DNA of 58,239 nucleotides from Phycisphaerales bacterium (lineage in GTDB: Bacteria > Planctomycetota > Phycisphaerae > Phycisphaerales > UBA1924). Location: the NCBI GenBank assembly GCA_047620485.1, contig JBLHKT010000027.1:1-58239 (forward strand). The letters are read 5' to 3'. The notes beneath the pieces are model-generated. The model had not been told where the DNA came from. It was given only the letters and a program-made list of their open reading frames with translations, and ran no database searches. The stretch's first letter is position 1, and every line of letters begins with the position of its first letter. Shown here in pieces: positions 1,521-14,870 of the stretch. Both the position numbers and the translations under genes were made by a program.

Positions 1521-2834
1521 TTAGAAATACAGCCCGATGTTGACGTTGAACCTCGTGCCCCACTTGTCATCGGCACCTTCGGCGAGCCCGTCGGTCCAGT
1601 CGCCGCCGAGCCAGGGGTGGTTCTTACCCACAGCCAGATCGATGTAGATGTAGAACGGGTTCGCGGAGATCATGCACCCCAGCACGTTCTGGACGGTGTC
1701 GTTGTACCCGGACTCGGCTTTGAGCATGAGGCTGGAGTCGTTGTAGAAGGTGAGCGACTGGATGCCGTGGTTGTCGATGGGGAGGGTGTAAGCGAGCCCG
1801 GCGGTGAGGATGGATGCCTCGGAGGCGACGTGGTACCAGGCGTCGTAGGCACCCATGGTTACGAAACTGCCGTCGGGGCTCGAGTCGAGTGATGGGTCGT
1901 TCTCCAGGTCGTACTTGTAGTGGATCGCCTGGAGCATGAGGTTCCACCGGCCGTAGGTGCCGTTGAGGTGGGCGGCGACGGCCCACTGGTTGCCGTCTCG
2001 GCCGGTGTTTTTGTTGGGCACCAGCCCGTACTGGAGTGAGAGCCCGATCTCGGTGGTGTTGGATTCGGAGTGGTCGAAGGTGTAGGCGAGCTTGGCGTTG
2101 CCTTGGTGTTTTTCCTCGTTGCCGTCGTTCTCTTCCAGGACCAGGTCGTAGGAGTAGCGTGCGCTGTCGTTGGAATCGCCGGTGTAGTCCCCCCCGTCGT
2201 TGGCGAAGTAGGCGAGCTGGAATTCCCATGGCCCGGAGTCGTGGATGAGCTTGACGCCGAGGTCGTAGTCGTCCTCGAGCCCGACGTAGTAGGGGAGCTG
2301 GAAGAACCAGGAGTGCGAGGCGTAGGTCTGGATGCCGAAGGGGACCTGGGTGAGCCCGGCGCGGACCTGGCTCTCGTCGTCGATCTTCCACCCCAACCAG
2401 GCGTACTTGAGCATGTGGTAGTCGTGGTTGTCGGTGAACCGTTCGTTGTAGTACCGGTATTCGAGCGAGCCGATGATGTGCTCGGTGTCTAGATCGAGAT
2501 TGACGCGCACAGTGTCGAGTGCGAGCTCGCCGGAGTCTTGGTAGTGCGAGCCGTAGTCTCGTGTGGAATAGTTGTATCGGAGGGCGCCGCCGACTCTGAG
2601 CGGGCCGAGGAAGAAGCCCTTCCAGCCCTCGTCGATTTCGAGGTCTGCTGGTTCGATCTCGGCATCGGCGTCCGGGGTCTCGGAGAAGAGAGGATCGATC
2701 GTGGTGGGCGATTCGGATGTCTGCGCCTGAGCGGTCAGAGCAGCGAGCAGCATTGTGAGCCAGAACGTGGGCACCTGACAAGCAGGGCGGTTCACTGGTA
2801 GCGAAGGCGCGCGGTGTGAGGATATGGTCGTCAT
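1521..2834 (-). CDS. Putative outer-membrane beta-barrel protein/porin (signal peptide MLLAALTAQAQ, alternating amphipathic strands, C-terminal ...IGLYF)
   Basis: N-terminal signal peptide, aromatic-rich beta-strand pattern and terminal Phe typical of OMPs. Its start overlaps the stop of the upstream gene by 4 nt. Confidence 0.6.
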   Translation of the reverse strand: MTTISSHRAPSLPVNRPACQVPTFWLTMLLAALTAQAQTSESPTTIDPLFSETPDADAEIEPADLEIDEGWKGFFLGPLRVGGALRYNYSTRDYGSHYQDSGELALDTVRVNLDLDTEHIIGSLEYRYYNERFTDNHDYHMLKYAWLGWKIDDESQVRAGLTQVPFGIQTYASHSWFFQLPYYVGLEDDYDLGVKLIHDSGPWEFQLAYFANDGGDYTGDSNDSARYSYDLVLEENDGNEEKHQGNAKLAYTFDHSESNTTEIGLSLQYGLVPNKNTGRDGNQWAVAAHLNGTYGRWNLMLQAIHYKYDLENDPSLDSSPDGSFVTMGAYDAWYHVASEASILTAGLAYTLPIDNHGIQSLTFYNDSSLMLKAESGYNDTVQNVLGCMISANPFYIYIDLAVGKNHPWLGGDWTDGLAEGADDKWGTRFNVNIGLYF

Positions 2835-5800
2835 TCGCCGATCTCCTTGGTGATTTTGATGAGATTACGATCCGCTCGGCGCTCATACTCGATGGTGTCA
2901 ACAAGGCGTCGGACGATCTCGATGCCGTCACCCCCGATGGAGCGTTCCTCGATGGGGAGGTCGATCCGTGGCGCGGCCTGTTCGAGCGGGTTGAACTCAA
3001 GCCCGTCGTCGGAGATGGTGACGACGACCCGTTGTGTGTTGATCTCGACCTTGATGTCGATCTGGTGGATCTTGTCGTCCTTATACCCGTGGGAGATAAC
3101 GTTGCTGAGCAGTTCGTCGAATACGATGCAGAAGCTTCGGCGGACTTTTTCGGTCAGGCTGTGTGGGGTGACGAACTTCTCGAAGAACTCGTTGACCCGG
3201 GTGATCTCGTCTTTGCGGTTCAGGATCGAGATCTCGAACCGTCGCTGCACCGAACTCTCGCTTGCGCCTCGGTACAGCAGGGTGAGAATGGTGATGTCGT
3301 CGGCCTGCTCGGCGCCGTTCTCGAAAGTACGGATCGCGTCGATGGTCTTGTCGAGAGCCTGCTTGTCCGAATCTGGTGCCTCGGTTTCGAGGAGCTTGGC
3401 GAGGCGATCCTCGGTGAACAGCTCCTTGGCCGGGTTCATCGCCTCGGTGACACCGTCGGTGTAGGTCACCAGCACGTCGCCGGGTTTGAGGGCGGTGCTT
3501 GACGACCCGTACTCCAGATCGGGCGAGGCACCGATGATGGGGCCGTGCCGATCCCGGAGGCGTTCGACCGAGCCATCGACGCGGCGGATCATGGGCGGGT
3601 TGTGCCCGGCGTTGGTGTAGGTCAGCTGCCCGGTGCGGGTGTTGAGCACCGCGAGGAACTCGGTGACAAACATGCAGGACTCGTTGCGCTCCGAGAGCCT
3701 GTTGTTGACCAGCGAGAGCACGCGGGAGGTCGAGACATCGTCCATGGCTCTCGAGCGGATGAGGGTCTGGGTGACGGCCATGAAGAGCGCAGAGGGGACG
3801 CCCTTGCCCGAGACATCGCCGATGGAGATACACAGGTGGTCGTCGTTGATGAAGAAGAAGTCGTAGAAGTCGCCGCCGACCTCGCGGGCGGGGATGATCG
3901 CAGCGCTGATGGAGAACTCGTCGTGGTCGGGGAAGGCGGGGAAGATGAGCGGGACCATGCTCATCTGGATGTCGCGTCCGACGTTGAGCTCCTGCTCCAT
4001 CCGCATGGAGTGCTGCTTGATGATGGCGTAGGCGTCGGTGAGCCGGTGGTTGGTGCCTTCGAGCTTCATGCGGCTCCACAGGAACAGCCCGGTCAGCCCG
4101 GTGATGAGCACGACGGCGAGCCCGGTTCCGACGACGGCCTGACGGGTGAAGGCGGCCCGTAGCTCGTAGGCCTCGGCAACATCGATCTCGGTGGTAATGC
4201 CCAGCCCGATGCGGTCGTCCCAGACCCAGGTGCCGATGACGGGCACGCCGCGGTAGTCGTTGTACCCGTCAAGATTGGACGCCGAGTTGCCGCCGGTGGC
4301 CTGGTCGGCCATGTGCGTGAGAGAGAGTTGCTCGGGCGGGAGGGAAGTGGTGTGCCCGAGGGTGAGGTTGCCGCCGGGGTCTCGCAGGGCGACGTTGAGG
4401 ATGCTGCGTTGGTCGGGTTCGATGATGCCGATCTGCTCGAGCTGATCGTCGAACCGGCTCTCGGAGACCATCTGCCCGAGCCGGTTGAAGGCGTAGGACT
4501 CGCCGGAATCGCCCATGCGGCCGCGCTGGAGGATCGCGGTGAAGGGGCCTTCGGTGTCGGCAGCAAGGATTAGCCCGCCGATCAAGGTGCCTGTCTCGTT
4601 ATACACGGGCGCGGCGACCAGCAGCAGTTGATGCAAGGTGTGCGTGACTGTGGCTTGGGGGTCCAGCGTGGGTACGCGGACCGAGGTCGGGCGGTTGTCG
4701 GCGATGACCTGGTTGAGCATATCGAGGCAGAGCGCCCGGTCAGTCTCGGTGAGCGTGGAGAGGTCTTCACCGGCAAGCAGGAGCTGCCCGTCGGGTGCGA
4801 TTACGACAAACGTGTCAAATGCGAGCGCGTCGGAGGTCTCGGTGAGCGCCCGGCGGAGGGCTGTTGACTGGGCTTCAAGCTCCGCGGCGTCGGCATCTCC
4901 CGACAGGGACTCAACCGCTAAGGGCACCGCGGGGCGCTGCGTCAGGCTCTGGGCATCGTACTCTCGGGCCCGGATCCAGTCGAAGGCGGCCTGGCTTGTG
5001 GTGCGCAGGACCGTGTTCTGCGCGTTGCCGACATCGCTGGTGGCTCGCTTGAACGTCGCGGACCAGCTCATCCGCCCGGCGAGGATGACCACGACGATCG
5101 CGGAAGCCCCGGTGACCACGATCGGCCATGAGTGGAGGAGATTGGCCTTGTGGAAGTCACGCTCGGATGTTTTACGACGGACGGCCAGAACGAGGGCGAG
5201 GACGACCACGCCTATGACAGATCCCACGATGGTGAGCGTCGGGTCACGAGTGAGCAGGGAGTCGCCAGGCGGCTCGAGGGCGATCCATCGGCGGTAGATG
5301 TCTTGGCGCTCCGACGCGGGGATGGAGTCCAGAGCTCGCCGGAGCATGGCGTGGAGCTCGGGCCAATCGTTGCGGGACGCGATGCACAGGTTCCACTCCA
5401 TGCCGGAGGTCCCGGCGACGCGGAGATTTGTCATCCCGTTCTTCTCGATATAGAAGCTCGCGGCGCCGATGTTGGCGATCACCGCGTCGGCGACGCCGAA
5501 CGAGACCAGCTCGAGCCCCTCCTCAATGTTGGGCACTTCGACCAGTTGCAGGTTGGGGTGGTTGTCGCGGACGTACTCAGCCGAGGCGTAGCCCTTCATG
5601 ACGACGACGTTGAGCCCGGCGAGGTCGGCGATGCTCAGCGTGCCCTCGGTCTCTCGCCGAACGATGATGACGATCGGGAGGTCGATGTACGGCTTGGTGA
5701 ACAGCATGAACTCGCGGCGCTCGGGCGTGTTCTGGGCCTCGAGCCAGACGTCGGCCTCGCGGGCCTTGGTCGCGGTCACGACGCCCTGCCAAGAGTCGTA

Positions 5801-6154
5801 TCGGGCGATCTCGAACTCGATGCCGAGCTTCTGTTCGATGATGCCAGCGTACTCGGCCATCACGCCGCGGTAGATCCCCTCGTCGTCGAAGTACTCCATC
5901 GGGGGGAAGTTGGGTGCTGGCGCGACCCGAATACCCGGGTGTGCGTCGAGCCAGGCCCGCTCTTCGGTTGTGATCACGAATTCCTCTTGAGCCAGCGCGT
6001 GAGGGCCGGCCGCGAGAAACAACAGGACTGAGACGGTCCAAAGCACCACCGAAACCACGGCGAGGCGGGGACGATCGCGAGTCTCAAGGGGTGTTGTATC
6101 TTGCTGAGACATGCGGCGGCTGCCTTTCATTCTCGACCCGATTTGAGGTCGCAC
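2831..6154 (-). CDS. 1107-aa multidomain membrane sensor: periplasmic solute-binding domain (SBP_bac_3-like), several TM helices, extracytoplasmic sensor region, PP2C/SpoIIE-type Ser phosphatase domain and C-terminal RsbW-like GHKL Ser-kinase (HATPase_c_2) domain
   Basis: PP2C motifs (REVGGDFYDFF..., DVSGKGVPSALFM..., TYTDGVTEA) and a C-terminal anti-sigma-factor-like ATPase region (ELLSNVISHG...GGDGIEIVRRL). N-terminal PBPb-like region follows a signal/TM segment. Confidence 0.75.
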   Translation of the reverse strand: MRPQIGSRMKGSRRMSQQDTTPLETRDRPRLAVVSVVLWTVSVLLFLAAGPHALAQEEFVITTEERAWLDAHPGIRVAPAPNFPPMEYFDDEGIYRGVMAEYAGIIEQKLGIEFEIARYDSWQGVVTATKAREADVWLEAQNTPERREFMLFTKPYIDLPIVIIVRRETEGTLSIADLAGLNVVVMKGYASAEYVRDNHPNLQLVEVPNIEEGLELVSFGVADAVIANIGAASFYIEKNGMTNLRVAGTSGMEWNLCIASRNDWPELHAMLRRALDSIPASERQDIYRRWIALEPPGDSLLTRDPTLTIVGSVIGVVVLALVLAVRRKTSERDFHKANLLHSWPIVVTGASAIVVVILAGRMSWSATFKRATSDVGNAQNTVLRTTSQAAFDWIRAREYDAQSLTQRPAVPLAVESLSGDADAAELEAQSTALRRALTETSDALAFDTFVVIAPDGQLLLAGEDLSTLTETDRALCLDMLNQVIADNRPTSVRVPTLDPQATVTHTLHQLLLVAAPVYNETGTLIGGLILAADTEGPFTAILQRGRMGDSGESYAFNRLGQMVSESRFDDQLEQIGIIEPDQRSILNVALRDPGGNLTLGHTTSLPPEQLSLTHMADQATGGNSASNLDGYNDYRGVPVIGTWVWDDRIGLGITTEIDVAEAYELRAAFTRQAVVGTGLAVVLITGLTGLFLWSRMKLEGTNHRLTDAYAIIKQHSMRMEQELNVGRDIQMSMVPLIFPAFPDHDEFSISAAIIPAREVGGDFYDFFFINDDHLCISIGDVSGKGVPSALFMAVTQTLIRSRAMDDVSTSRVLSLVNNRLSERNESCMFVTEFLAVLNTRTGQLTYTNAGHNPPMIRRVDGSVERLRDRHGPIIGASPDLEYGSSSTALKPGDVLVTYTDGVTEAMNPAKELFTEDRLAKLLETEAPDSDKQALDKTIDAIRTFENGAEQADDITILTLLYRGASESSVQRRFEISILNRKDEITRVNEFFEKFVTPHSLTEKVRRSFCIVFDELLSNVISHGYKDDKIHQIDIKVEINTQRVVVTISDDGLEFNPLEQAAPRIDLPIEERSIGGDGIEIVRRLVDTIEYERRADRNLIKITKEIGE

Positions 6155-6178: not shown

Positions 6179-7096
6179 TCACCCACTCACACAATGGTTT
6201 GCGATCTCGGCGACCTGTGCGATGAGGGCGTGATTAATTCCCGCGATGAGCAGCCCGGAGTGGTGCTGCGCGTCGATGGGACGGCCTGTCCCGTCAACGA
6301 CCTCGCCCCCGGCGTTGCGGATCACCTGCACCGCAGCGACGAAGTCGAACGGGTCGGCCGGGCGACGCTCCCACAGGTTGACGTAGATGAAGTTGCCCTT
6401 CGCTGCGTCTGCCAGCGCCAAGGACGGTGAGCCACTCTCCATGCGAACCAGGCGGACCTGGTCGAGAGTCCAGGCGTCGATCAGGCTCGCGACGAGAGGC
6501 CCCGACCCACGCGAAGAGTGCACGAGCACGAGCGGCTGGTCGGTGGGGGTCTGATCGAGAGGCAGGTCAACACCGATGTCCTGCTCGCCGAACATGTCGA
6601 GGTGCAGCAGGCGGGATTTCCGGGTTCCCATGGTGTAGGAGATCTCGCCGGTCGCGGGGTTCGCGATGATCCCGAGGAACGGGCTGCCGTTACGGAAGAA
6701 CGCGAGGACCACAGCGGTGGTGCTCATCCGGTTGATCAGGGCCCAGGTGCCGTCGAGCGGATCGACCGCGACCGCGATGCCCTGCTCGGGGAGAAACCCT
6801 CCCATCTCCTCGCCGACCAGTTCCGCGTCGGGGCAGAACTCGGTGAGCCGCTCACGGATCATCTGCTCGATCTGTTCTTCTTGCGCGGTCACCGGCGTCG
6901 CGTCTTGTTTGAATGAGGTGGAATCCTGCAGCGGCGTCATGCGGAGCCTGCGGATGACGCGGCAGGCCTCGAGGGTAGTGTTCAAGGCGAAGTCGAGCCA
7001 TTCGTTGAGTGCGTGGTCCGGTGCAGGTCTCGGCTTGTCTCGATCTCCGCTCCTGAAGGCGCCAATAGCTGATTTCTCGGTCGGGGTGAGTTCCAT
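6179..7096 (-). CDS. Inositol monophosphatase-family phosphatase (IMPase/CysQ/SuhB-like, about 305 aa)
   Basis: AVDPLDGTWALI metal-binding motif plus family-typical EEMGG and WERRPADPFD segments. Start placed at MELTPTE. Confidence 0.7.
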   Translation of the reverse strand: MELTPTEKSAIGAFRSGDRDKPRPAPDHALNEWLDFALNTTLEACRVIRRLRMTPLQDSTSFKQDATPVTAQEEQIEQMIRERLTEFCPDAELVGEEMGGFLPEQGIAVAVDPLDGTWALINRMSTTAVVLAFFRNGSPFLGIIANPATGEISYTMGTRKSRLLHLDMFGEQDIGVDLPLDQTPTDQPLVLVHSSRGSGPLVASLIDAWTLDQVRLVRMESGSPSLALADAAKGNFIYVNLWERRPADPFDFVAAVQVIRNAGGEVVDGTGRPIDAQHHSGLLIAGINHALIAQVAEIANHCVSG

Positions 7097-7116: not shown

Positions 7117-9708
7117 TCAGGTGACGGCGGGTTGATTGCTCGTCACGGGGGTTGTTGTTTCCATGGCGCTGATAGCGGCCTTGACACACCGCGCCTCGGC
7201 GGCGGCCATCCGCGACAGCGTTTTCTCATCTGCTCGGGCCCATTGGATTTCCTCGAACTCGCCGCCGGGTGTGAACTGCCTGGGTGACTGCTCGAACGCG
7301 ACGGAGATGCCGAAGGCCTGGATCTTGACCCAGGCGTGGTCGGTCTGGCGGGGGTCGTAGAAGTAGCCCTGGGAGACGGTCGGGATCGCGTCGCACTCGA
7401 TCTCCCACCCGGTTTCGGCGTGGAGCACCCGCTTGAGGGCCTGCTCGCCGGTTTCGGTGGGGTGCATAAATCCCTTGGGCACCCACAGCATCGAGCCGTC
7501 GGGCTTGAGTCCCACAAGAACATCGATCGCGTCGTCCGAGTCATGCTTGCGAAGCACCACACCCGCGGCGGACTGGTTGGGCCCCCAACGCCCCAGCAGC
7601 CCACGCCCCGCAATGCCGGTCCGCCCTCGTGGGTTGAGCAGGCGTCCGGCATCGTCCCGCTTGGCCCGCCGCCCCGTGGCAACAACGGTCGTGTGGTCAT
7701 GGTCCTCGCCGTCGGCCCACGCGGAATCCCCGGTGGTTGCTGAGGGCGACAGCACGCTCTCGTGCACGAAGTACGGTGGTGTGTATTCCGGGCACGGCAC
7801 GGACCAGGGCGCGTAGTCGATCGAGACGCGGCACCGTGCCGGGTACTCGGGCGGACGCTCGCCGCGAATCTGCAGGTGAAAGTCGTCGGCCACGAGGTTG
7901 AACGCCAGCGATTCCACCGAGTACAACGCGTGCATGAGCTGGGGCAGTTCGCACTCGCCTCGATCTCGGGCAGCATCAAAGCTCAGCGTGTGGGCGGCGA
8001 ACTTGAGCAGGGCCACGCGGTACACCAGCCAGTCGTCGTGCTCCTTGATCTCGAAGCAGATCTCCCGGATCCGGCGCACGCCATCGAGGATCTTGCGGAA
8101 GCGAAGGTCCCACTTCACGAACCGCAGGTCCGGCGGCAGCAGCTCGGGCTCCGGCACGACGCGAGAGCCGAGCAGGAACTCCTCGAATCGCCGGAGCCGC
8201 TCGAGATCGTCGAGCCCGAACTGCTTGCTCATCACGAACTTCAGGTCGTTCTCGAGCTTGGCGAAGTCCACCTCGATGGGCGTCTCGCCGGAGTGGGTCC
8301 AGTCGATAAACCAGACGTTGTCGGAGTTGTCGCAGATGATGTTCTGGAGGTTTAGGTCGCCGTGGGACAGGCAGACCTCGCTCTCGATCGCGTCGATGTT
8401 CGAGGTGATGAGTTGCAACATCGAGACGACCGTGCTGTGATCGACCGCTCCGGCTGGCCCGATGCCTCGGTCACACGCCTGCTTCGCGATCTCCGACGCG
8501 TTCTCTTCGAGCCACGTGAGCTGCTGCTCGCCGTCGAGCCCGAGAACCCGGTACGGCGCGACCAGAGCGGTTCGGCTCGTGTTGCGGTGCAGCTTCTGAG
8601 AGATCAGCACCAGCGCACGCCCGAGCCTACCCATGAATCTTTGGAAGCTCTCGTCGTCCTCAGCGTTCTCGAAGGTCTCCTGCAGGGTCTCGGGTCGCCC
8701 CTCCATCGCAGCGAACTCCATCGCGACCCCCACCGAGTCGCCGATCGAAACCGGGTGCGAGAACGCGGGGACGTTTTTGCCCAAGAGGTCTTTCACGAGG
8801 TGGTAGCCGTTAATCTCGCGGCGCATCTGCGTGAACTCGTCGATCTTGAGCACCACCGGCTCGATCTGCGCGTGGCCCTTCCATCCGTCAGCGAGGAAGA
8901 GCAGGCTGCCGCTGAACCCACCCTGGAGCGGCTTGAGCTCGACGCGTGACCAGTTCATGCACAGGCGTTCGATGATCTGGAGGCGGTCATCGCTGATCTG
9001 TGAAACCGATTCGGGCGGCCCGATCTCACAGGGCGAGCTGGCGATCTGCTCGAAATCGGTGGGATCAAGCCCGGCGTATTCGGCGGTCTCTTGCAGATCC
9101 AGCAGGACTTCGATTTCGCAGGCCGGGAGGTTGTGGCGAAGCGCGGCGAAATGAGCCTCGATGGATGAGCTCCCGGTGAGATGTGATGAGACCGCGACTC
9201 GCTTTGCCCCGAGTACGTTTCGCAGGAAGGTGGCGAGGGTCAACACCCGATCTTCGGTGTGGCACCCCACGACCAGGAAGCGGGTGTCATTGTCCAGATT
9301 CAGCTTTGCCGGGTCGATCCCTGCGGCGGTCGTGATCGCGCCCTTGAGCTGGCTCCACAGAGATCGCTCTTCATCTGGGCCCACGATCTCAGCGGTGCTC
9401 AGGTAGGGCTTGAGGACCTCGACCACGTCCAGGGCTTTGAGCTCGCTCGCAGAGGGTGAGGCGGACAGGGAATCCCCCGTGGTGCTGCCCGTCCAGGTGA
9501 CGGTGATGCAAGAGATATCCTCGCCACGGTCTGCCGCCAGGGCGGCCCGTTTGAGAAACGTAGGCAGCGGGCCCTCGCCGTAGGACTTGCCCCGCCCCAT
9601 GAGTCGCTCGATCTCGCGGGCCCCGATGCTCTTCTTGTGCTCAAGGTGTGCGACATCGGCGCTGAGGAACTTGTTGTCCAATCCGATGCCGATGACGATG
9701 GTCTTCAT
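7117..9708 (-). CDS. 864-aa tri-domain protein: N-terminal isochorismatase/nicotinamidase-fold domain (catalytic Cys apparently replaced), central APH/choline-kinase-fold phosphotransferase, C-terminal NUDT9-like ADP-ribose pyrophosphatase-type Nudix domain with a degenerate Nudix box
   Basis: Kinase motifs: GGFSGSLLF (Gly loop), VVLKID (Lys), LSHGDLNLQNII (HGDxxxxN), FIDWTHSG. NUDT9 signature: GRTGIAGRGLLGRWGPNQSAAG. Nudix box reads GFMHPTETGEQALKRVLHAETGW (REUxEE becomes RVLHAE). N-terminus: TIVIGIGLDNKF...FLVVGCHTEDRVLTLATFL...GAKRVAVSS resembles the PncA/isochorismatase fold. Start at MKTIVIG, preceded by a GGGAG ribosome-binding site. Confidence 0.65.
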   Translation of the reverse strand: MKTIVIGIGLDNKFLSADVAHLEHKKSIGAREIERLMGRGKSYGEGPLPTFLKRAALAADRGEDISCITVTWTGSTTGDSLSASPSASELKALDVVEVLKPYLSTAEIVGPDEERSLWSQLKGAITTAAGIDPAKLNLDNDTRFLVVGCHTEDRVLTLATFLRNVLGAKRVAVSSHLTGSSSIEAHFAALRHNLPACEIEVLLDLQETAEYAGLDPTDFEQIASSPCEIGPPESVSQISDDRLQIIERLCMNWSRVELKPLQGGFSGSLLFLADGWKGHAQIEPVVLKIDEFTQMRREINGYHLVKDLLGKNVPAFSHPVSIGDSVGVAMEFAAMEGRPETLQETFENAEDDESFQRFMGRLGRALVLISQKLHRNTSRTALVAPYRVLGLDGEQQLTWLEENASEIAKQACDRGIGPAGAVDHSTVVSMLQLITSNIDAIESEVCLSHGDLNLQNIICDNSDNVWFIDWTHSGETPIEVDFAKLENDLKFVMSKQFGLDDLERLRRFEEFLLGSRVVPEPELLPPDLRFVKWDLRFRKILDGVRRIREICFEIKEHDDWLVYRVALLKFAAHTLSFDAARDRGECELPQLMHALYSVESLAFNLVADDFHLQIRGERPPEYPARCRVSIDYAPWSVPCPEYTPPYFVHESVLSPSATTGDSAWADGEDHDHTTVVATGRRAKRDDAGRLLNPRGRTGIAGRGLLGRWGPNQSAAGVVLRKHDSDDAIDVLVGLKPDGSMLWVPKGFMHPTETGEQALKRVLHAETGWEIECDAIPTVSQGYFYDPRQTDHAWVKIQAFGISVAFEQSPRQFTPGGEFEEIQWARADEKTLSRMAAAEARCVKAAISAMETTTPVTSNQPAVT

Positions 9709-9739
9709 GGGTACTCCCGTGGAATCCGCGGCACACGCC

Positions 9740-10072
9740 TCAAAAACCAGCGAGCGCCACTTGCTCGCTCTCAAACACCTTCAGGAGCGTGTCGAAGCCC
9801 GAGATCTCAAAGATGTCGCTCACGGACTCGTTGAGCCCGCACAACCGGAGCGACCCGCCCCGGTCCCCGAGCTTTTTGGCCGTCACGAGCAGCACTCGCA
9901 GCCCGGCGCTGGAGATGAAGTCGAGCGCGGTGAAGTTGATGAGGACCTTGTCGGCACCCTGTTCCACCACGTCGCCGAGCGTGCTCTCGGCCTGTGCGCT
10001 GGTGTTGGTGTCGAGTGAGCCGTCGAAGACGATTACCTTGACGTCGTTGCTGTCCTGGATGTCGATGTTCAT
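9740..10072 (-). CDS. STAS-domain anti-sigma-factor antagonist (SpoIIAA/RsbV-like, 110 aa)
   Basis: Typical STAS sequence with the conserved phospho-Ser region (...NFTALDFISSAGLRVLL...). Start at MNIDIQD. Confidence 0.8.
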   Translation of the reverse strand: MNIDIQDSNDVKVIVFDGSLDTNTSAQAESTLGDVVEQGADKVLINFTALDFISSAGLRVLLVTAKKLGDRGGSLRLCGLNESVSDIFEISGFDTLLKVFESEQVALAGF

Positions 10073-10127: not shown

Positions 10128-11357
10128 TCACGATGGGCTCCCATGAAACTTGATGGCGATCACGGTGATGTCGTCGCTCTGCGGCGTGCCGAACTCGTGC
10201 TGAGTGACCGCGTCGGAGATCCGGCGGATGACCCTCTCGGGGGTGGGGTTCTCGTCGGCGTTGATTAGCCCCTCGAGGCGGGGCTCGCGGAACATCTCGC
10301 CCGTCGAGTCGGTGGCCTCGGTCACTCCGTCGGTGTAGACCACAAGCATCTCGCCGCGGGTGAGGGTTGTGGAGCTCTCGGAGTACTCGGCGTCCTCGAC
10401 CACGCCCAAGGGCGGGCCGTCGCGGTCGGTGAGCATCTCGGCGTGCTTCCCGGGCGGCCGCCGGTACGGCTTGTTGTGCCCCGCGTTGGTCATGACGACC
10501 TCGCCGGTGTTCAGGTCGAGGATGGCGATGAACAGCGTGATGAACATGCATGAGTCGTTGTTGATAGCCAGCTCGGCGTTGACCCGGGAGGCCAACGCCC
10601 CAGTCGATTCGGCCCGCATCGCGTTGGCCTTGATCAGTGTCTTGGCGGCGGCCATGAACAGCCCCGAGGCGGCACCCTTGTCCGAGACGTCGCCCACGAG
10701 GAAGCAGAGACGGTCGTCGTCCACGAAGAAGAAGTCGAAGAAATCACCGCCAACCTCGAGCGCGGGCTTGAGCATCCCCGCGATGGTGCACTCGGTGCGG
10801 TTGGGTGTGAGACGGCGTGGCAGCATGTTCATCTGAACCTGCCGGGCGACCCTGAGCTCACGCTCCATGCGGTCCTTCTGCGACTTGATGACGTCGTACG
10901 CCTTTTGCAGCTCCGCGGACCGCTGCTCGAGCGCCGCGTTGGCCTTCTCGAGGTCCTTCTTGTGCCGGTCGGCGAGCTTCGAGAACGAGTTGAGCAGGTG
11001 GTCCTGCTCCTTCTGCTTGGTGATCTCCACCGACTCGGCGAGCACCAGTTGTCGCCCGCCACGCTCTATGTGGCGGAGAGTGGTCAGGATCGAGACGGGC
11101 CGGGCGCCCAATCGGATCTCGGCCTCGACCGGGAACGGGCGGCCCTTGTCGAGCCGCTTGCTGGCACGCTCCCGGTTCAATTCGGGCAACCGATCGGCGA
11201 GATCGTTGGACTCGGTTGAGGCTGCGAACCAGCTCTCGAAGGCCCGATTGGTGTATTCCACCCGCCAGGTCTGGGCGTCGGCTAGCGCGATCCCCACGGC
11301 CAGGGAGTCCGCGGAGTCTTCGATCCCAATGCGTTGTCCGTCTCGCCCGCCCATCAC
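10128..11357 (-). CDS. Sensor-domain (PAS-like) PP2C/SpoIIE-family Ser phosphatase (RsbU/RsbP-like, 409 aa)
   Basis: PP2C motifs (LEVGGDFFDFFFVDDDRLCFLVGDVSDKGAASGLFMAA...VYTDGVTEA...SDDITVIAIKF). Start codon overlaps the stop of the upstream globin gene. Confidence 0.8.
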   Translation of the reverse strand: MMGGRDGQRIGIEDSADSLAVGIALADAQTWRVEYTNRAFESWFAASTESNDLADRLPELNRERASKRLDKGRPFPVEAEIRLGARPVSILTTLRHIERGGRQLVLAESVEITKQKEQDHLLNSFSKLADRHKKDLEKANAALEQRSAELQKAYDVIKSQKDRMERELRVARQVQMNMLPRRLTPNRTECTIAGMLKPALEVGGDFFDFFFVDDDRLCFLVGDVSDKGAASGLFMAAAKTLIKANAMRAESTGALASRVNAELAINNDSCMFITLFIAILDLNTGEVVMTNAGHNKPYRRPPGKHAEMLTDRDGPPLGVVEDAEYSESSTTLTRGEMLVVYTDGVTEATDSTGEMFREPRLEGLINADENPTPERVIRRISDAVTQHEFGTPQSDDITVIAIKFHGSPS

Positions 11358-11716
11358 CCGGACCCGACGATGCTGGCCCGGTAGCCCTGCAGTTGCTCTG
11401 AAACGTTATCGATGACACTCTCATCAACGTCGTGGTCTTCGAGGGTCTCGCCGATCAGCTCGACGATCAGATCGAAGTGCAGGTCCTTGATGCTCATCCC
11501 GGAATGCATTTTGTGGAGTTGCTCGTGCGTGTACGACACGGGCCCACCGAGGATGGTGGCCCAGAACTTGGTCTGGTGATCGATCAGCGACGCCATGTCG
11601 GTGTGCTGAAAAAACGGCGAGAGCTGCTCTTCGCTGAGCACCTTGTCGTAGAAATCTGTGACGAGCTTTCGCACCGTCGCAAACCCGCCCAGCTTGTCGT
11701 ACAGAGACTGTTCCAT
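11354..11716 (-). CDS. Truncated hemoglobin (group I trHb, 120 aa)
   Basis: MEQSLYDKLGGFATVRKLVTDFYDKVLSEEQLSPFF...WATILGGP is the 2/2 hemoglobin signature. Start chosen at the internal ATG of a longer ORF whose N-terminal part is Arg-rich noise. Confidence 0.75.
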   Translation of the reverse strand: MEQSLYDKLGGFATVRKLVTDFYDKVLSEEQLSPFFQHTDMASLIDHQTKFWATILGGPVSYTHEQLHKMHSGMSIKDLHFDLIVELIGETLEDHDVDESVIDNVSEQLQGYRASIVGSG

Positions 11717-11745: not shown

Positions 11746-13032
11746 TCAGTCGAGTTGCTTGGGCACGGGCGGGGCATGATTGCCCTTGTCGGTGAGTTTG
11801 GAGAAGTCCACGCCGGTGGCGTTGCTCATCTGCTCCATCATCGAGACCACGCTGCTCGTGAGGTTTTTGACGTACGCGGGGAGCCCGTCGCCGCTCCCGG
11901 AGTCCACGATGGTGAGCTTGTCGATCCTGAGATTGTCCGCGACGACGCGTGACATCTTGTCGATCAGCTCGGGCATGAGGTGGATGAGAAACAGGTTTTC
12001 GGCCTCGCCGCCGTTCCACTGCTTCTGGAGCGCCTCGATCGCCTGGGCCTTGGCTTTGCCCTCCTCAAGGGTGCGGCTGGCCTTGCCCTCGGACTCGAGC
12101 AGCATCGCATCTCGCTTAGCGCGGGCCGGCACGACGGTGTCCGCGTTATGGAGTTGAACCGCAAGCTGAGCCCGCTTGGTCTGCAGCTCGATCTCCTCGC
12201 CCGCCCGGGTGATCTTGCCCGCAACACTCGCCCGCTCCACAGCACGGTTTGTCTCGGCCTCGAGATCGGCCCGCTCGACGGCCAGCGCGTTCTCGTGCGT
12301 GATGATCGTCCGTTCGGCTCCGATCTCGGCTTCGCGACCGATCCGATGCTGATCCGCAGCCACGGTGATCGACTCGGCCTTGGCGTGGGCCTCGGCGATG
12401 CTCGCGTCCCGCTGAACTACAGCGTTCTTCTTTCGCCCGATCGCCTCAAGATACCCCTGTTCGTCGGTCACCTCCTGCACCTGCAGGAAATCGAGCACGA
12501 TCCCCAGGTTCTTGAGATCAGCCCGAGCGTGCTCGGCGGCGGCTTTAGCGAATTCCAAGCGATTCGAGTTCGCATCCTCGGGACTCATCGTCGCGACCAC
12601 GCCACGCAGCGCTCCCTCGATCGCCTGCTTGGCGGTCTTCACCACCGCGTCTCCGCCCTTGCCGATGAACCGCTCGATCGCGGCGTCCATGCCGTCCTCG
12701 CTATTGCTCGCGATCTTGACGGTTGCCTTGGCCTCGATGGTGAGTGGGATCATGCCGCCGGACATCGCCTTGTGCAGGATCAGTTCTACAGGCAGCGAGT
12801 TGAGCGGCAGCCTCGCAACGGTCTCGAGCATCGGACGCTTGAACCCGCGCCCGCCTCGCAGCACCCGGTACCCGACGGTGCTCCCGTCGGCGGCCTTGCG
12901 CTTTCGCCCCGCGATCACGACCAGCTCGTTTGGTGGGCACAGGACGATGTTGCTCTTGAAGAAGACGAGCGTCAGCATGATCGCGAGAACGCCCAGGCCG
13001 ATTGCGAGGCCGATGATCTGTGGGGTATCCAT
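11746..13032 (-). CDS. Flotillin/SPFH (band-7) domain membrane protein (428 aa)
   Basis: N-terminal TM helix, SPFH domain, and a long coiled-coil Ala/Glu/Arg-rich region characteristic of bacterial flotillins (FloT/YqiK-like). Confidence 0.75.
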   Translation of the reverse strand: MDTPQIIGLAIGLGVLAIMLTLVFFKSNIVLCPPNELVVIAGRKRKAADGSTVGYRVLRGGRGFKRPMLETVARLPLNSLPVELILHKAMSGGMIPLTIEAKATVKIASNSEDGMDAAIERFIGKGGDAVVKTAKQAIEGALRGVVATMSPEDANSNRLEFAKAAAEHARADLKNLGIVLDFLQVQEVTDEQGYLEAIGRKKNAVVQRDASIAEAHAKAESITVAADQHRIGREAEIGAERTIITHENALAVERADLEAETNRAVERASVAGKITRAGEEIELQTKRAQLAVQLHNADTVVPARAKRDAMLLESEGKASRTLEEGKAKAQAIEALQKQWNGGEAENLFLIHLMPELIDKMSRVVADNLRIDKLTIVDSGSGDGLPAYVKNLTSSVVSMMEQMSNATGVDFSKLTDKGNHAPPVPKQLD

Positions 13033-13081
13033 GGTGGTTGGTCCTTTGCTGTGCTCGATCGGGAGTGGGGGGGTGGGGGGA

Positions 13082-14509
13082 TCAAGCGTCGAAGTACATC
13101 TCAAACTCGGTCGGGTGGGGTCTCAGGCTCAGGTGTTTGATCTCTTTTTCACGCTTCACGCGGAGCCAGGTATCGATGAGGTCTTCGCTGAACACGCCGT
13201 GGTCGGTCAGGAACGAATAGTCGGCTTCCAGCGCATCGAGCGACTCGGACAGCGAGCTGGGTGTCGCCTGGAGCAACCGCCCGTGCTCGGATGTGGCGAA
13301 CTTGAAGATGTCCTGGTCCACGGGTGGTGCCGGCTCGGTTTTGTTGATGACGCCGTCGATCCCGGCGAGCAGGATCGCCGACAACGCCAAGTACGGGTTA
13401 CATAGCGGATCGGGCGTGCGGAATTCCACCCGCTTCGCGTTCGCGTTGGCCCCGGTAAATGGCACGCGGACGCACGCGCTGCGGTTGCGCTGCGAGTAGG
13501 CGAGGATGGTGGGGGCCTCATACCCGGGGACGAGTCGCCGGTAGGAGTTGGTGGTCGCGGCGGCGAACGCGCACACAGCCGGGGCGTGGGCGAGGATCCC
13601 GCCGACGAAATGAATCGCAAAGTCGCTCAGGTCGGCGTACTTGCCCGGCTCGTAAAAGATGTTCTTCTTATCTTTCCAGACACTGATGTTGGCGTGCATG
13701 CCCGATCCGGCCTGCTCGAAGATCGGCTTTGGCATAAACGTCGCGATCTTGTTGTACCTGGCCGCGGTATTCTTGACCGTGTACTTGAACTTTATCGCGT
13801 TGTCGGAGGTCTCGAGGAGCTTGCCGAACTTGAACCCGATCTCGTTCTGACCGGCGGACCCGACCTCGTGGTGGTGCAGCTCGGGGGTCAGCCCGACGAT
13901 CTCCATGACCTTGGAGATCTTGCCCCGAATGTTGTGCCCGGGGTCATTGGGTGGGGCGGAGAAATAGGCGTTCTTGGGGCGGGCCCGGTGGCTCCGTTCG
14001 GGGGCTTTCCCGCCAACGTGCTCGGCGGCATCAGAGTCCACGAAGTGGTATGCGTGCCGGGCGTCCTGCCCGTACCGAACGTCGTCAAACAGGTAAAACT
14101 CAGGCTCCACGCCGAACGACGCAAAGTCCGCCAACCCTATCGAACGCAGCAGTCGCCCGGCACGGTGCGCCACGCCTCGGGGGTCTCTCGAGTACGGCTT
14201 GTACCCGTCCGGATCGAGGATGTCGCAGAACAGGGAGAGCGTGGGGTCGTCGTAAAACGGATCAACGAACAGCGAGTTCGGATCCGGTTTGAGGATCAGA
14301 TCGCTCTCGCTGATCGCCTGGAACCCGCGCACCGAGGAGCCGTCGAAGTTCACACCGCGTGCGAAGCTGCCCTCGTCGAGTGCTTTCGCGGGAAACGTGA
14401 TGTGCTGGAGCCCGCCGAAGAGATCGACAAACTTGAAATCGACAAACTCGATCGATTCCTCGCGGATTCGCTTGAGTATGTCCCGGACATTGATCGGATG
14501 GTCAGTCAT
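13082..14509 (-). CDS. glnA: Glutamine synthetase, type I (475 aa)
   Basis: Full-length GS with conserved beta-grasp and catalytic regions (e.g. FDGSSVRGFQ..., KPIFEQAGSGMH...). Start at MTDHPIN. Confidence 0.9.
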   Translation of the reverse strand: MTDHPINVRDILKRIREESIEFVDFKFVDLFGGLQHITFPAKALDEGSFARGVNFDGSSVRGFQAISESDLILKPDPNSLFVDPFYDDPTLSLFCDILDPDGYKPYSRDPRGVAHRAGRLLRSIGLADFASFGVEPEFYLFDDVRYGQDARHAYHFVDSDAAEHVGGKAPERSHRARPKNAYFSAPPNDPGHNIRGKISKVMEIVGLTPELHHHEVGSAGQNEIGFKFGKLLETSDNAIKFKYTVKNTAARYNKIATFMPKPIFEQAGSGMHANISVWKDKKNIFYEPGKYADLSDFAIHFVGGILAHAPAVCAFAAATTNSYRRLVPGYEAPTILAYSQRNRSACVRVPFTGANANAKRVEFRTPDPLCNPYLALSAILLAGIDGVINKTEPAPPVDQDIFKFATSEHGRLLQATPSSLSESLDALEADYSFLTDHGVFSEDLIDTWLRVKREKEIKHLSLRPHPTEFEMYFDA

Positions 14510-14523
14510 GTGGTATGGCCTCG

Positions 14524-14856
14524 TTACAGCGCCCGCGGTCCGCGAACACCGGTCCAAATGGTGACGATGTCGTCGAGCGGCTGGACCATGATCCGCCCCC
14601 ACCCGCCGGTCTCGTGAGCCCCTCGGCTAATCGCGTCGATCGCAGTCTCGACCTGTGCGTCGTTAACCGCGAGCTCGATGCGGACCCTTGAGAACAGCGA
14701 GACCTCCCGCTGTACGCCGCGGTACATCTGCTGCTCGGACTTGGGCGCGGTGCCCATGACCGTCGAGGCGGTGATGTGCCTGATCTGAGAGTCAAACAGG
14801 GCCTGCTTGACCGACGGGAGCTGTTCTGGGCGGATGACCGCAACGATGAGTTTCAT
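14524..14856 (-). CDS. glnK: PII-family nitrogen regulatory protein (GlnB/GlnK-like, 110 aa)
   Basis: MKLIVAVIRPEQLPSVKQAL...GKIGDG-like core. Position between amtB and glnA is the classic arrangement. Confidence 0.8.
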   Translation of the reverse strand: MKLIVAVIRPEQLPSVKQALFDSQIRHITASTVMGTAPKSEQQMYRGVQREVSLFSRVRIELAVNDAQVETAIDAISRGAHETGGWGRIMVQPLDDIVTIWTGVRGPRAL

Positions 14857-14870
14857 GGGTGCAGCCTCCG

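What the first reader, a model, noticed from the sequence alone, without database searches (positions are those of the whole stretch)
7117..9708. Unusual tri-domain protein: isochorismatase-like, APH-fold kinase, NUDT9-like Nudix with a degenerate catalytic box, embedded in a partner-switching operon
I do not recognise this architecture as described. The C-terminal domain carries the NUDT9/ADP-ribose-pyrophosphatase signature (GRTGIAGRGLLGRWGPNQSAAG), but its Nudix box reads RVLHAE instead of REUxEE. That substitution pattern is reminiscent of the hydrolysis-deficient, ADPR-binding NUDT9-H domain of TRPM2 channels. The middle domain has all the aminoglycoside/choline-kinase-fold motifs. The N-terminal domain aligns to the nicotinamidase/isochorismatase fold, but the catalytic Cys position is occupied by Arg. 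The gene sits between a STAS anti-sigma antagonist plus PP2C phosphatase (upstream) and an IMPase-family nucleotide phosphatase (downstream). A plausible reading is a sensor or enzyme for ADP-ribose or an NAD-derived nucleotide that feeds a Ser-phosphorylation partner-switching cascade. It could equally be a nucleotide-signal degrading module.
Basis: partly seen in the sequence, partly recalled or inferred. Interest (0 to 1): 0.8.

Follow-up and report, generated by a model that had tools for sequence, protein, structure and literature searches.

The report
Kinase flanked by two dead NAD-enzymes
This gene encodes an uncharacterised bacterial protein in which an intact small-molecule-type kinase sits between two enzyme-derived domains from NAD breakdown that have lost key catalytic residues (a nicotinamidase-like one and an ADP-ribose-binding one like that of the human TRPM2 channel), and it is conserved across many phyla beside a phosphatase and a stress-signalling switch, so it may mark an unknown nucleotide-signalling pathway.

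Summary
Window 7117-9708 (-) encodes an 863-aa protein with three domains.

- **Middle domain:** an APH/TCAD9 kinase with all catalytic motifs invariant. Its closest structures are small-molecule kinases.
- **C-terminal domain:** NUDT9 cap plus Nudix core. The box reads RVLHAE; the first catalytic Glu is V/I/A in 53 of 53 homologues, as in human TRPM2 (RILRQE). The ADPR-contacting DPRxTDxAW and GRTGxxGRG motifs are invariant.

The family occurs in MAGs assigned to about 12 major bacterial lineages. An IMPase-family phosphatase lies immediately downstream in 44 of 55 loci. STAS, PP2C and RsbW-like genes are usually nearby, inside a larger Amt–PII–GlnA–flotillin block that often also carries nucleotide-gated ion channels.

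My best reading (inferred, confidence about 0.4) is an ADPR-type-nucleotide-binding kinase. With the IMPase it would form a phosphorylation/dephosphorylation pair on a small nucleotide or sugar, acting as an output of the partner-switching module. The database label "ADP-ribose pyrophosphatase" is probably wrong. I found no published description.

The parts
7117..9708 (-). CDS of the 863-aa tri-domain protein (stop codon 7117-7119)
   Evidence: ORF. Identical protein P0001 from a Phycisphaerales MAG and more than 345 full-length homologues.
8959..9708 (-). Residues 1-250: degenerate nicotinamidase/isochorismatase-fold domain. The Cys position is R154 (nt 9247-9249); the PncA metal site and Lys are absent.
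7879..8946 (-). Residues 255-610: APH-fold / TCAD9 kinase domain. GGFSGS loop, K288, E298, HGDLNLQN catalytic loop (nt 8341-8364), D469 in IDWTH.
   Evidence: Pfam TCAD9 and APH. Motifs invariant in 53 sequences. Closest structures are maltokinase, MTR kinase and APH(3').
7585..7878 (-). Residues 611-708: NUDT9 N-terminal cap region, running into the GRTGIAGRGLLGRWGPN motif (nt 7561-7626)
   Evidence: phmmer alignment to TRPM2 and NUDT9 from residue 607/625. Precomputed PF25969 NUDT9_N. Low AF2 confidence here.
7159..7584 (-). Residues 709-850: Nudix core of the NUDT9-homology domain, with invariant D785-P-R787-Q-T-D-x-A-W
   Evidence: Pfam NUDIX. PDB matches. Conservation.
7405..7473 (-). Degenerate Nudix box GFMHPTETGEQALKRVLHAETGW (RVLHAE in place of REUxEE)
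   Evidence: Aligned to TRPM2 RILRQE.
6179..7096 (-). IMPase-family phosphatase (305 aa from the ATG at 7096; the longer ORF runs to 7189). DPLDGT and GEEMGG metal motifs are present.
   Evidence: Pfam Inositol_P 1.2e-25. Immediately downstream of the target in 44 of 55 loci.
9740..10072 (-). STAS anti-sigma-antagonist-type protein (110 aa) with the DFISSAG phospho-serine motif
   Evidence: Pfam STAS 7e-21 and TIGR00377. Upstream of the target in 27 of 47 loci.
10128..11357 (-). PAS-PP2C (SpoIIE-type) phosphatase
   Evidence: Pfam SpoIIE 2.4e-45.
11354..11716 (-). Truncated (bacterial-like) globin. It travels with the PAS-PP2C gene in other loci.
   Evidence: Pfam Bac_globin 1e-21. Pair seen in L015, L021 and L022.
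2831..6154 (-). Membrane sensor: SBP_bac_3 - dCache - PP2C - HATPase_c_2 (RsbW-like Ser kinase)
   Evidence: Pfam and NCBIfam.
11746..16205 (-). Upstream block on the same strand: flotillin (11746-13104), glutamine synthetase (13082-14509), PII (14524-14856), ammonium transporter (14871-16205)
   Evidence: Pfam. PII read from ORF. The same block is linked to the target in many phyla.

Best explanation
**Shown at the level of sequence and predicted structure**
- The protein is a signalling enzyme built from one live catalytic domain and two enzyme-derived domains that lack key catalytic residues.
- The N-terminal domain descends from a PncA-type nicotinamidase. It has lost the Cys nucleophile, the Lys, and, in this clade, the metal site.
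- The C-terminal domain is a NUDT9-homology domain. It keeps the ADPR-contacting motifs but lacks two of the three Nudix-box glutamates, as in human TRPM2.
- The kinase between them keeps every catalytic motif. It most resembles kinases that phosphorylate sugars and other small molecules.

**Inferred**
- The NUDT9-H domain binds ADP-ribose or a close NAD-derived nucleotide without hydrolysing it.
- This nucleotide is either the substrate presented to the kinase or its activator.
- The kinase makes a phospho-ester on a small molecule. The most likely candidate is a ribose hydroxyl of ADPR or NAD (for example ADPR to 2'-phospho-ADPR, or NAD to NADP-like).
- The adjacent IMPase-family phosphatase removes that phosphate, giving a reversible kinase/phosphatase pair.
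- The pair is placed under the STAS/PP2C/RsbW partner-switching module. That module integrates periplasmic amino-acid (SBP-dCache) inputs and globin/PAS inputs. The pair acts as an output of the module.
- The physiological setting would be ammonium assimilation and ion homeostasis (Amt-PII-GlnA-flotillin, nucleotide-gated channels).
For: - **Domain identities.**
- **Degenerate box.** Present in 53 of 53 homologues and in the GTDB loci. A standalone Kitasatospora NUDT9 homologue keeps RELREE.
- **Ligand-contacting residues.** TRPM2 D1431 and R1433 correspond to D785 and R787, and GRTGxxGRG and WGPN are also invariant. These residues are essential for ADPR activation of TRPM2 (PMC5299621).
- **Box and hydrolysis.** A NUDT9-H-type box does not support hydrolysis, while ligand binding persists (PMC4974056).
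- **Kinase.** Motifs are invariant. The nearest structures are maltokinase, 5-methylthioribose kinase and APH(3').
- **IMPase.** It is immediately downstream in 44 of 55 loci and in the locus in 57 of 68, across phyla. Its metal-binding motifs are intact.
- **Phosphatase replacement.** In L011 the IMPase position is taken by a paralogue carrying a fused DSP-PTPase. This argues that a phosphatase is the required partner.
- **Sister family.** It is itself PncA-like - TCAD9 kinase - phosphatase, and its phosphatase matches the Pfam model 'DSP-PTPase fused to NAD+ kinase'.
- **Partner-switching genes.** They are conserved nearby. The order RsbW-STAS-target-IMPase is seen in Bacteroidota.
Against: - No biochemical data exist for any member.
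- The kinase substrate is unknown. APH-fold kinases include protein kinases (E. coli YihE/SrkA, from my own knowledge).
- IMPase subfamily assignment is ambiguous: weak partial hits to HisN, CysQ and SuhB.
- The cap region of the NUDT9-H domain is modelled with low confidence.
- Several TRPM2 ADPR contacts (H1346, Y1349) are not conserved, so the ligand may differ from ADPR.
- Some loci lack any partner-switching gene within 10 kb (L036, L052).
- The partner-switching association is strongest in Gemmatimonadota, which dominate the sample.
Confidence: 0.4

Rival explanations
1. Ligand-gated protein kinase. The NUDT9-H domain (and perhaps the N-domain) senses ADPR or an NAD metabolite and switches on a kinase that phosphorylates a protein. 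Candidates are the adjacent STAS protein, PII, glutamine synthetase or a neighbouring channel. The IMPase has a separate role, such as clearing the ligand or a by-product.
For: - STAS is the most tightly linked partner-switching gene (37 loci).
- In two long contigs STAS-target-IMPase occur with no RsbW or PP2C within 10 kb. There the target is the only kinase next to STAS.
- Pfam RIO1 and other protein-kinase-like weak hits are seen.
- The TCAD9 family is listed among protein-kinase-like families.
Against: - The nearest solved structures are small-molecule kinases.
- STAS proteins are normally phosphorylated by GHKL RsbW-type kinases, which are present in most loci.
- The near-obligate IMPase partner, and its replacement by a DSP phosphatase fused to a second kinase, are better explained by a shared small substrate.
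Confidence: 0.25
2. NAD-depletion or conflict (anti-phage) sensor. The two degenerate domains detect nicotinamide and ADPR released when NAD is cleaved by TIR/SIR2-type effectors or phage enzymes. The kinase then triggers a stress or dormancy response through the partner-switching module.
For: - The kinase belongs to TCAD9, a domain first named in vWA-MoxR-VMAP conflict systems (PMC7159879 mentions APH-like kinases as effectors).
- The two flanking domains derive from the enzymes that process the two NAD cleavage products.
- A mobile element lies about 11 kb away in the window.
Against: - No PADLOC model matches any gene of the operon.
- No vWA, MoxR or VMAP genes were seen in the window operon or among the neighbour genes I annotated; no dedicated scan of all 68 loci for them was run.
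- The context is conserved and housekeeping-like (Amt-PII-GlnA), not a variable defence island.
- In this clade the nicotinamide-coordinating metal site is lost.
Confidence: 0.1
3. Genuine ADP-ribose pyrophosphatase, as annotated in JGI and NCBI records, with accessory domains. The Nudix domain hydrolyses ADPR or a related nucleotide using a non-canonical set of acidic residues.
For: - Source annotations say 'ADP-ribose pyrophosphatase'.
- E752 and E/D765 are conserved, and a Glu is frequent at box position 4 (28 of 53).
- Atypical Nudix hydrolases exist (for example YmfB, 4nfx, among the structural hits).
Against: - The first box Glu is absent in 53 of 53 and the second is variable.
- The same pattern in NUDT9-H abolishes hydrolysis (PMC4974056).
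- The annotation is an automatic transfer from the Nudix/NUDT9 domain hit.
Confidence: 0.07

Closest known systems
NUDT9-homology (NUDT9-H) domain of vertebrate TRPM2
   Same: - NUDT9 cap plus Nudix core, matched at E about 5e-11.
- The same two Nudix-box positions are substituted (RILRQE against RVLHAE).
- The D-x-R ADPR contacts are retained.
- The predicted role is non-hydrolytic nucleotide binding that controls another module.
   Different: - It is fused to a kinase and a nicotinamidase-like domain, not to an ion channel.
- It is bacterial, and the loss of the box Glu residues is presumably independent of the loss in vertebrate TRPM2 (inference; no phylogeny was built).
- Several TRPM2 contacts (H1346, Y1349) differ.
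- Channels, where present (CNBD K+ channel), are separate neighbouring genes.
Human mitochondrial NUDT9 ADPR pyrophosphatase (1q33/1qvj) and bacterial standalone NUDT9 homologues
   Same: - Same cap plus core architecture.
- Same signature motifs GRTGxxGRG, WGPN and DPRxTDxAW.
   Different: The canonical REFGEE/RELREE box is replaced by R[VI]Lxx[ED], so hydrolysis is unlikely.
NrtR (Nudix-related transcriptional regulator)
   Same: A bacterial Nudix domain used as an ADPR-binding sensor rather than as a hydrolase. The degenerate-box sensor role is from my own knowledge. It appears among the structural neighbours (3gz8).
   Different: - NrtR has no NUDT9 cap and is fused to a winged-helix DNA-binding domain.
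- Here the output is a kinase.
TCAD9 / APH-type small-molecule kinases (maltokinase Mak, 5-methylthioribose kinase, APH(3'))
   Same: - Passes the Pfam TCAD9 threshold.
- Same fold and catalytic motifs.
   Different: - It is not associated with a vWA-MoxR-VMAP ternary system.
- The substrate is unknown.
- It carries two flanking domains that lack key catalytic residues.
Sister family: PncA-like - TCAD9 kinase - DSP-PTPase proteins (about 770 aa, e.g. Enhygromyxa salina 'protein-tyrosine phosphatase-related protein')
   Same: - Homologous N-domain plus kinase (25% identity over 460 residues, E 6e-32).
- The Cys nucleophile is also replaced (by Lys).
- A kinase paired with a phosphatase.
   Different: - The sister keeps the nicotinamidase DxH...H metal site.
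- It has a fused DSP phosphatase instead of NUDT9-H plus a separate IMPase.
- It is usually a stand-alone gene with variable neighbours.
- It is also uncharacterised.
RsbU/RsbV/RsbW-type partner-switching systems
   Same: - STAS with a phosphorylatable Ser motif.
- PP2C phosphatases with sensor domains.
- An RsbW-like HATPase_c_2 kinase.
   Different: - No sigma factor is present in the cluster.
- The gene standing where the regulated output usually lies is this kinase plus an IMPase.
Archaeal bifunctional NADP phosphatase/NAD kinase (MJ0917 type)
   Same: An IMPase-family phosphatase paired with a kinase acting on the same nucleotide (my own knowledge). There is a weak NCBIfam hit of the IMPase to NF010678 (E 0.007).
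   Different: - The kinase here is APH-fold, not the NAD-kinase fold.
- The hit is far below the cutoff, so this is only an analogy.

Membership tests
NUDT9-type ADP-ribose pyrophosphatase | NUDT9 cap (NUDT9_N) plus Nudix-fold core with GRTGxxGRG / WGPN / DPRxTDxAW signatures | tested here: met
   phmmer E 8e-11 to 1q33. PF25969 precomputed. Motifs invariant.
NUDT9-type ADP-ribose pyrophosphatase | Canonical Nudix box GX5EX7REUXEEXGU with the three catalytic or metal-binding Glu | tested here: not met
   RVLHAE. Glu2 is V/I/A in 53 of 53, Glu5 is variable, Glu6 is E/D in 46 of 53.
NUDT9-type ADP-ribose pyrophosphatase | Hydrolysis of ADPR to AMP plus ribose-5-phosphate | not testable with these tools
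   Needs an enzyme assay.
Non-catalytic NUDT9-H ligand-binding domain (TRPM2 type) | NUDT9 homology with substituted box Glu residues and retained ADPR contacts | tested here: met
   Alignment to TRPM2 RILRQE. D1431 and R1433 correspond to the invariant D785 and R787.
Non-catalytic NUDT9-H ligand-binding domain (TRPM2 type) | Covalent fusion to a TRPM cation channel | tested here: not met
   No transmembrane or channel domain in the protein.
TCAD9 / APH-fold kinase | Pfam gathering threshold; Gly-rich loop, Lys, HxDxxxxN and D of the Mg loop | tested here: met
   86.7 bits against 40. GGxxGS, K288, H449-G-D-L-N..N456 and D469 are invariant or nearly so.
TCAD9 / APH-fold kinase | Association with a vWA-MoxR-VMAP ternary conflict system | tested here: not met
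   No vWA, MoxR or VMAP gene appears in the window operon or among the neighbour genes annotated with Pfam. No dedicated scan of all loci for these families was run.
Isochorismatase / nicotinamidase (cysteine hydrolase) superfamily | Three-layer alpha/beta isochorismatase fold | tested here: met
Isochorismatase / nicotinamidase (cysteine hydrolase) superfamily | Sequence membership (Pfam PF00857) | tested here: not met
   No hit at E<=1. A profile against PDB sequences finds nothing. The sister family does hit (2.6e-8).
Isochorismatase / nicotinamidase (cysteine hydrolase) superfamily | Asp-Lys-Cys catalytic triad (and DxH...H metal site for nicotinamidases) | tested here: not met
   The Cys position is R154, and R/H/Q/M/E across the family. 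Lys and the metal-site segment are absent in this clade. In the window protein the Asp position is Ile.
Partner-switching system | STAS antagonist with phosphorylatable Ser, PP2C phosphatase and RsbW-type GHKL Ser kinase encoded together | tested here: met
   STAS (DFISSAG), two SpoIIE/PP2C domains, HATPase_c_2 at residues 980-1103 of the 1107-aa sensor.
Partner-switching system | Identified output (sigma factor or other sequestered partner) | tested here: inconclusive
   No sigma factor in the cluster. The tri-domain protein is a candidate output by gene order only.
IMPase superfamily (neighbour gene) | Pfam Inositol_P above threshold, DPxDGT and acidic metal-binding motifs | tested here: met
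   91 bits against 27. DPLDGT and GEEMGG are visible in the sequence. The subfamily is unresolved.

The most novel reading that the evidence does not exclude
Bacteria of many phyla use a phosphorylated ADP-ribose (or NAD-derived) nucleotide as a second messenger. On this reading it is made by this NUDT9-H-guided kinase and erased by the partner IMPase. It is controlled by a partner-switching cascade and read out by neighbouring nucleotide-gated ion channels and the Amt/PII/GS nitrogen machinery. That would be a prokaryotic, in-trans counterpart of ADPR gating of TRPM2, built from two NAD-catabolic domains that lack key catalytic residues.
Probability: 0.15. Interest if true: 0.9.

Novelty: new variant of a known kind. 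Interest (0 to 1): 0.7.

Why it matters
- **Parallel with TRPM2.** If the reading is right, this is a bacterial case of a NUDT9 enzyme turned into a non-hydrolytic ADPR sensor. That is the change that created ADPR gating of vertebrate TRPM2. Here the sensor is coupled to a kinase instead of a channel.
- **A dedicated enzyme pair.** It would define a kinase/phosphatase pair for an NAD-derived small molecule, placed under a partner-switching system that has no sigma factor.
- **An output for orphan switches.** It would give such switches, which are common but poorly understood, a concrete enzymatic output.
- **Physiological link.** The conserved linkage to ammonium transport, PII, glutamine synthetase, flotillin and cyclic-nucleotide or RCK-type channels points to a link between NAD turnover and nitrogen/ion homeostasis. 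This concerns abundant but uncultured soil and marine lineages (Gemmatimonadota, Acidobacteriota, Planctomycetota).
- **Annotation.** The current database label 'ADP-ribose pyrophosphatase' is probably wrong for more than 300 database entries (representatives of 90%-identity clusters).

Tried and rejected
- **Profile of the N-domain against PDB sequences.** No isochorismatase hit. The link needed a fold search and the sister family as a bridge.
- **Pfam on the isolated N-domain at E<=1.** Nothing.
- **PADLOC on the whole operon and the sister protein.** No defence-system model, so a known anti-phage system is rejected.
- **Literature searches.** I searched for TCAD9, for NUDT9 with bacterial/kinase/STAS, for partner-switching with Nudix, and for the Rhodanese-phosphatase superfamily. 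I also made targeted reads. There is no description of this architecture. TCAD9 is only named as a vWA-MoxR-VMAP-associated, kinase-like domain. The 2023 paper that defines the PTP-SAK and PTP-NADK models is not in the held library.
- **AFDB Foldseek library.** Unavailable.
- **Sister-family neighbourhoods.** One look-up found nothing. Two showed unrelated, variable contexts, so the partner-switching link is specific to the Nudix-bearing family.
- **Pfam on neighbours in loci lacking the switch.** Mostly no hits, apart from an Amt and an MscS-CNBD channel.
- **IMPase subfamily assignment by NCBIfam and PDB.** Only weak, partial hits to HisN, CysQ and SuhB, so no substrate inference is possible.
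- **Rejected reading.** A chance or frameshift-generated fusion is excluded: the architecture is full-length in the 120 best database entries and in 68 genome loci.


Full report
**1. The observation**

The minus strand carries one long ORF, 7117..9774. The ATG at 9708 is the likely start for three reasons:
- all homologues start at the equivalent Met (MxTIIIGDGL...);
- a GGGAG lies 7 nt upstream;
- the upstream STAS gene has its stop codon at 9740-9742.

The product is 863 aa. It is identical to a protein from a Phycisphaerales (Planctomycetota) MAG on a 58,239-bp contig (P0001).

**2. C-terminal domain**

- *Homology.* Residues 607-830 match the NUDT9-homology domain of human TRPM2 and human NUDT9 (1q33) at E 5e-11 to 8e-11. 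Pfam NUDIX matches. The precomputed Pfam record adds NUDT9_N, PF25969.
- *Nudix box.* It is G746-x5-E752-x7-R760-V-L-H-A-E765-T-G-W (nt 7405-7473). In the alignment it lies directly over TRPM2's RILRQE.
- *Family conservation.* In 53 full-length homologues the first Glu of REUxEE is V38/I13/A2 and never Glu. The second Glu position is variable. The last is E39/D7. Box strings pulled from the GTDB loci (about 35 of them matched the search pattern) show the same pattern. A standalone NUDT9 homologue in Kitasatospora has the canonical RELREE.
- *Ligand contacts.* GRTGxxGRG, WGPN and D785-P-R787-Q-T-D-x-A-W are invariant. D785 and R787 correspond to TRPM2 D1431 and R1433, whose mutation abolishes ADPR activation (PMC5299621). 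Other reported contacts (H1346, Y1349) are not conserved.
- *Meaning of the box.* Constructs carrying the NUDT9-H box do not hydrolyse ADPR yet still bind it (PMC4974056).
Hydrolytic incompetence is inferred, not shown.

**3. Kinase domain**

- Pfam gives TCAD9 (2.5e-24; 86.7 bits against a cutoff of 40) and APH (7.9e-10), with weaker Choline_kinase and RIO1 hits.
- The Gly-rich loop GGFSGS, K288, E298, H449-G-D-L-N-x-x-N456 and D469 (IDWTH) are invariant or nearly so.
- A Foldseek search of the AF2 model (mean pLDDT 83) ranks mycobacterial maltokinase, 5-methylthioribose kinase and APH(3') first. All of these are small-molecule kinases.
- TCAD9 was named as a domain associated with vWA-MoxR-VMAP ternary conflict systems. 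[quoted passage not shown]
- No vWA, MoxR or VMAP gene appears in the window operon or among the neighbours I annotated.

**4. N-terminal domain**

- *Sequence.* There is no Pfam match even at E<=1. A 34-sequence profile finds no solved isochorismatase.
- *Residue-level bridge.* This came from a paralogue found in locus L011, which has the architecture Isochorismatase (PF00857, 2.6e-8) - TCAD9 (4e-55) - DSP-PTPase.
  - Its N-domain aligns to P. horikoshii nicotinamidase (1ilw) at E 1.6e-5. GVATEYC(133)V lies over GVWTEAKI. The D52-x-H54...H71 metal site (residue numbers from my own knowledge) is retained as RDWH...HC.
  - The paralogue aligns to the window protein over 460 residues (E 6e-32). 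This puts its Lys over R154.
  - The joint alignment confirms this.
- *Family variation.* The Cys position is R/H/Q/M/E and never Cys.
  - The metal-site segment survives partly in the Bacteroidota and Chromatiaceae members (RDYY...HC, RDCH...RHN).
  - It is lost in the main clade, which includes the window protein.
- *Distribution.* The domain is rare. Only 97 representatives at 50% identity were found among 1.84 billion proteins. Most full-length hits (about 830-900 aa) carry the domain at their N-terminus, and the shorter hits are probably fragments.
The domain is best described as a degenerate PncA-like domain that is probably non-catalytic.

**5. Distribution**

- More than 345 database entries (representatives of 90%-identity clusters) match at E<=0.001, and the 120 best listed are essentially full-length, mostly about 50% identical.
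- There are 68 loci in GTDB species genomes, all from MAGs:

| Lineage | Loci |
|---|---|
| Gemmatimonadota | 29 |
| Gammaproteobacteria | 10 |
| Acidobacteriota | 7 |
| Myxococcota | 4 |
| Bacteroidota | 4 |
| Planctomycetota | 3 |

- Alphaproteobacteria (2), Acidimicrobiia (2) and two unclassified MAGs also occur, with single loci from Verrucomicrobiota, Desulfobacterota, Fimbriimonadia and two further proteobacterial MAGs.
- No cultured host was seen.

**6. Neighbourhood**

*In the window.* Everything from 16205 down to 1521 is on the minus strand with short gaps or overlaps:

| Gene | Coordinates |
|---|---|
| Ammonium transporter (Amt) | 14871-16205 |
| PII | 14524-14856 |
| Glutamine synthetase | 13082-14509 |
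| Flotillin | 11746-13104 |
| Truncated globin | 11354-11716 |
| PAS-PP2C | 10128-11357 |
| STAS | 9740-10072 |
| The tri-domain protein | 7117-9708 |
| IMPase | 6179-7096 |
| SBP_bac_3-dCache-PP2C-HATPase_c_2 sensor | 2831-6154 |
| Porin | 1521-2834 |

*Across the 68 loci*:
- An IMPase homologue is immediately downstream in 44 of 55 loci that have enough flank. It is somewhere in the locus in 57 of 68.
- A STAS gene lies within 2.5 kb upstream in 27 of 47 loci.
- PP2C and STAS are each present in 35 of 51 loci.
- A K+ channel with a cyclic-nucleotide-binding domain sits next to the target, most often between STAS and the target, in 26 loci from at least eight lineages.
- A membrane protein with two TrkA_N domains follows the IMPase in 17 Gemmatimonadota loci.
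- The Amt-PII-GlnA-flotillin block is linked in Gemmatimonadota, Acidobacteriota, Bacteroidota, Gammaproteobacteria and Deltaproteobacteria.

*Variants:*
- In Bacteroidota the order is RsbW-like, STAS, target, IMPase.
- In two long contigs STAS-target-IMPase follow Amt-PII without any RsbW or PP2C within 10 kb.
- A few loci (L036, L052) have only target plus IMPase.
- In L011 the IMPase position is occupied by the paralogue with a fused DSP phosphatase.

*Summary.* The invariant partner is a phosphatase. STAS is the most tightly linked switch component. The wider nitrogen and ion context is frequent.

**7. Mechanism**

*Shown:* the domain identities, the motif states and the neighbourhood conservation.

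*Inferred:*
- The NUDT9-H domain binds ADPR or a close NAD-derived nucleotide without cleaving it.
- The kinase phosphorylates a small molecule. The grounds are its structural neighbours, the obligate IMPase (a family that acts on sugar, inositol and nucleotide phospho-esters), and the interchange of the IMPase with a DSP phosphatase whose best Pfam models include one 'fused to NAD+ kinase'.
- The most economical substrate is the bound nucleotide itself, for example a ribose hydroxyl of ADPR or NAD. The IMPase would reverse the step.
- The pair is an output of the partner-switching module, which has no sigma factor.

I put this at about 0.4.

*Rivals:*

| Rival | Confidence | Key point |
|---|---|---|
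| Ligand-gated protein kinase acting on STAS, PII, GS or a channel | 0.25 | |
| NAD-cleavage or conflict sensor | 0.10 | PADLOC finds nothing |
| True ADPR pyrophosphatase, as annotated | 0.07 | Contradicted by the box |

**8. Comparison with known systems and novelty**

- *Closest analogues.* These are the TRPM2 NUDT9-H domain (same fold, same substituted box positions, but fused to a channel) and NrtR (a bacterial Nudix ADPR sensor fused to a DNA-binding domain).
- *Formal memberships.* The protein formally belongs to Pfam TCAD9 and NUDT9_N/NUDIX. It fails the defining catalytic features of both NUDT9 hydrolases and cysteine-hydrolase isochorismatases.
- *Literature.* I found no paper describing the architecture, the family or the operon. 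The held library is incomplete, and one relevant paper could not be read.
- *Rating.* I rate it a new variant of known kinds: known domain superfamilies and a known type of switch, in an undescribed and widely conserved combination with two catalytically degenerate domains. Interest is 0.7.
- *Most novel reading not excluded.* A phospho-ADPR-type second messenger controlling channels and nitrogen machinery. Probability is about 0.15.

Noticed in passing
L011:12489-14921 (+); family P0217-P0336: A larger sister family of about 770 aa with the architecture PncA-like domain (metal site kept, Cys replaced by Lys) - TCAD9 kinase - DSP-PTPase. It has at least 1415 database hits, including Enhygromyxa salina, and is annotated 'protein-tyrosine phosphatase/nicotinamidase-related amidase'. 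It is also uncharacterised. It takes the IMPase position after the target in L011 and elsewhere is a stand-alone gene.
   Followed up: partly
26 related loci, e.g. L004:3892-5277, L018:8553-9983, L022:8499-9977: A voltage-gated-type K+ channel with a C-terminal cyclic-nucleotide-binding domain lies next to the target, most often between STAS and the target, in at least eight lineages. It is absent from the window. Other nucleotide-regulated transport genes recur nearby: an MscS-CNBD channel in L023, and cNMP_binding plus Mit_KHE1 in L071.
   Followed up: partly
17 Gemmatimonadota loci, e.g. L001:13466-14776, L056:13505-14836: A membrane protein with two TrkA_N (RCK, NAD-binding type) domains directly follows the IMPase gene. 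No K+ selectivity filter is evident.
   Followed up: partly
window 11746-16205 (-), and L006, L011, L015, L017, L055, L067, L070, L071: An ammonium transporter - PII - glutamine synthetase - flotillin block is physically linked to the STAS-target-IMPase block in many phyla. The reason for the linkage is unexplained.
   Followed up: partly
window 10128-11716 (-); L015:13599-15053, L021:3158-4742, L022:13630-14569: A truncated globin and a PAS-PP2C phosphatase travel together as a pair but change position within the cluster. This suggests an O2/NO-type input to the partner switch.
   Followed up: no
e.g. L017:3067-7461, L028:2925-7778: Gemmatimonadota loci carry a stressosome-like set between flotillin and the PP2C/STAS genes: RsbS-like STAS proteins and an HATPase_c_2+PP2C fusion.
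   Followed up: no
window 20665-26443 (-): Tyrosine integrase, ParB_N-DNA methyltransferase and a Prim-Pol/D5_N primase. This is probably an integrated mobile element about 11 kb from the operon.
   Followed up: no
window 16202-20315 (-): A Reg_prop/Y_Y_Y-HisKA_3 histidine kinase (954 aa) with two response-regulator genes lies directly upstream of the ammonium transporter gene.
   Followed up: no
L070:7858-9273, 13603-15018, 18471-19886: Three copies of a DDE transposase flank the STAS-target-IMPase triad in one 5.2-Mb contig. This hints that the triad can move as a unit.
   Followed up: no
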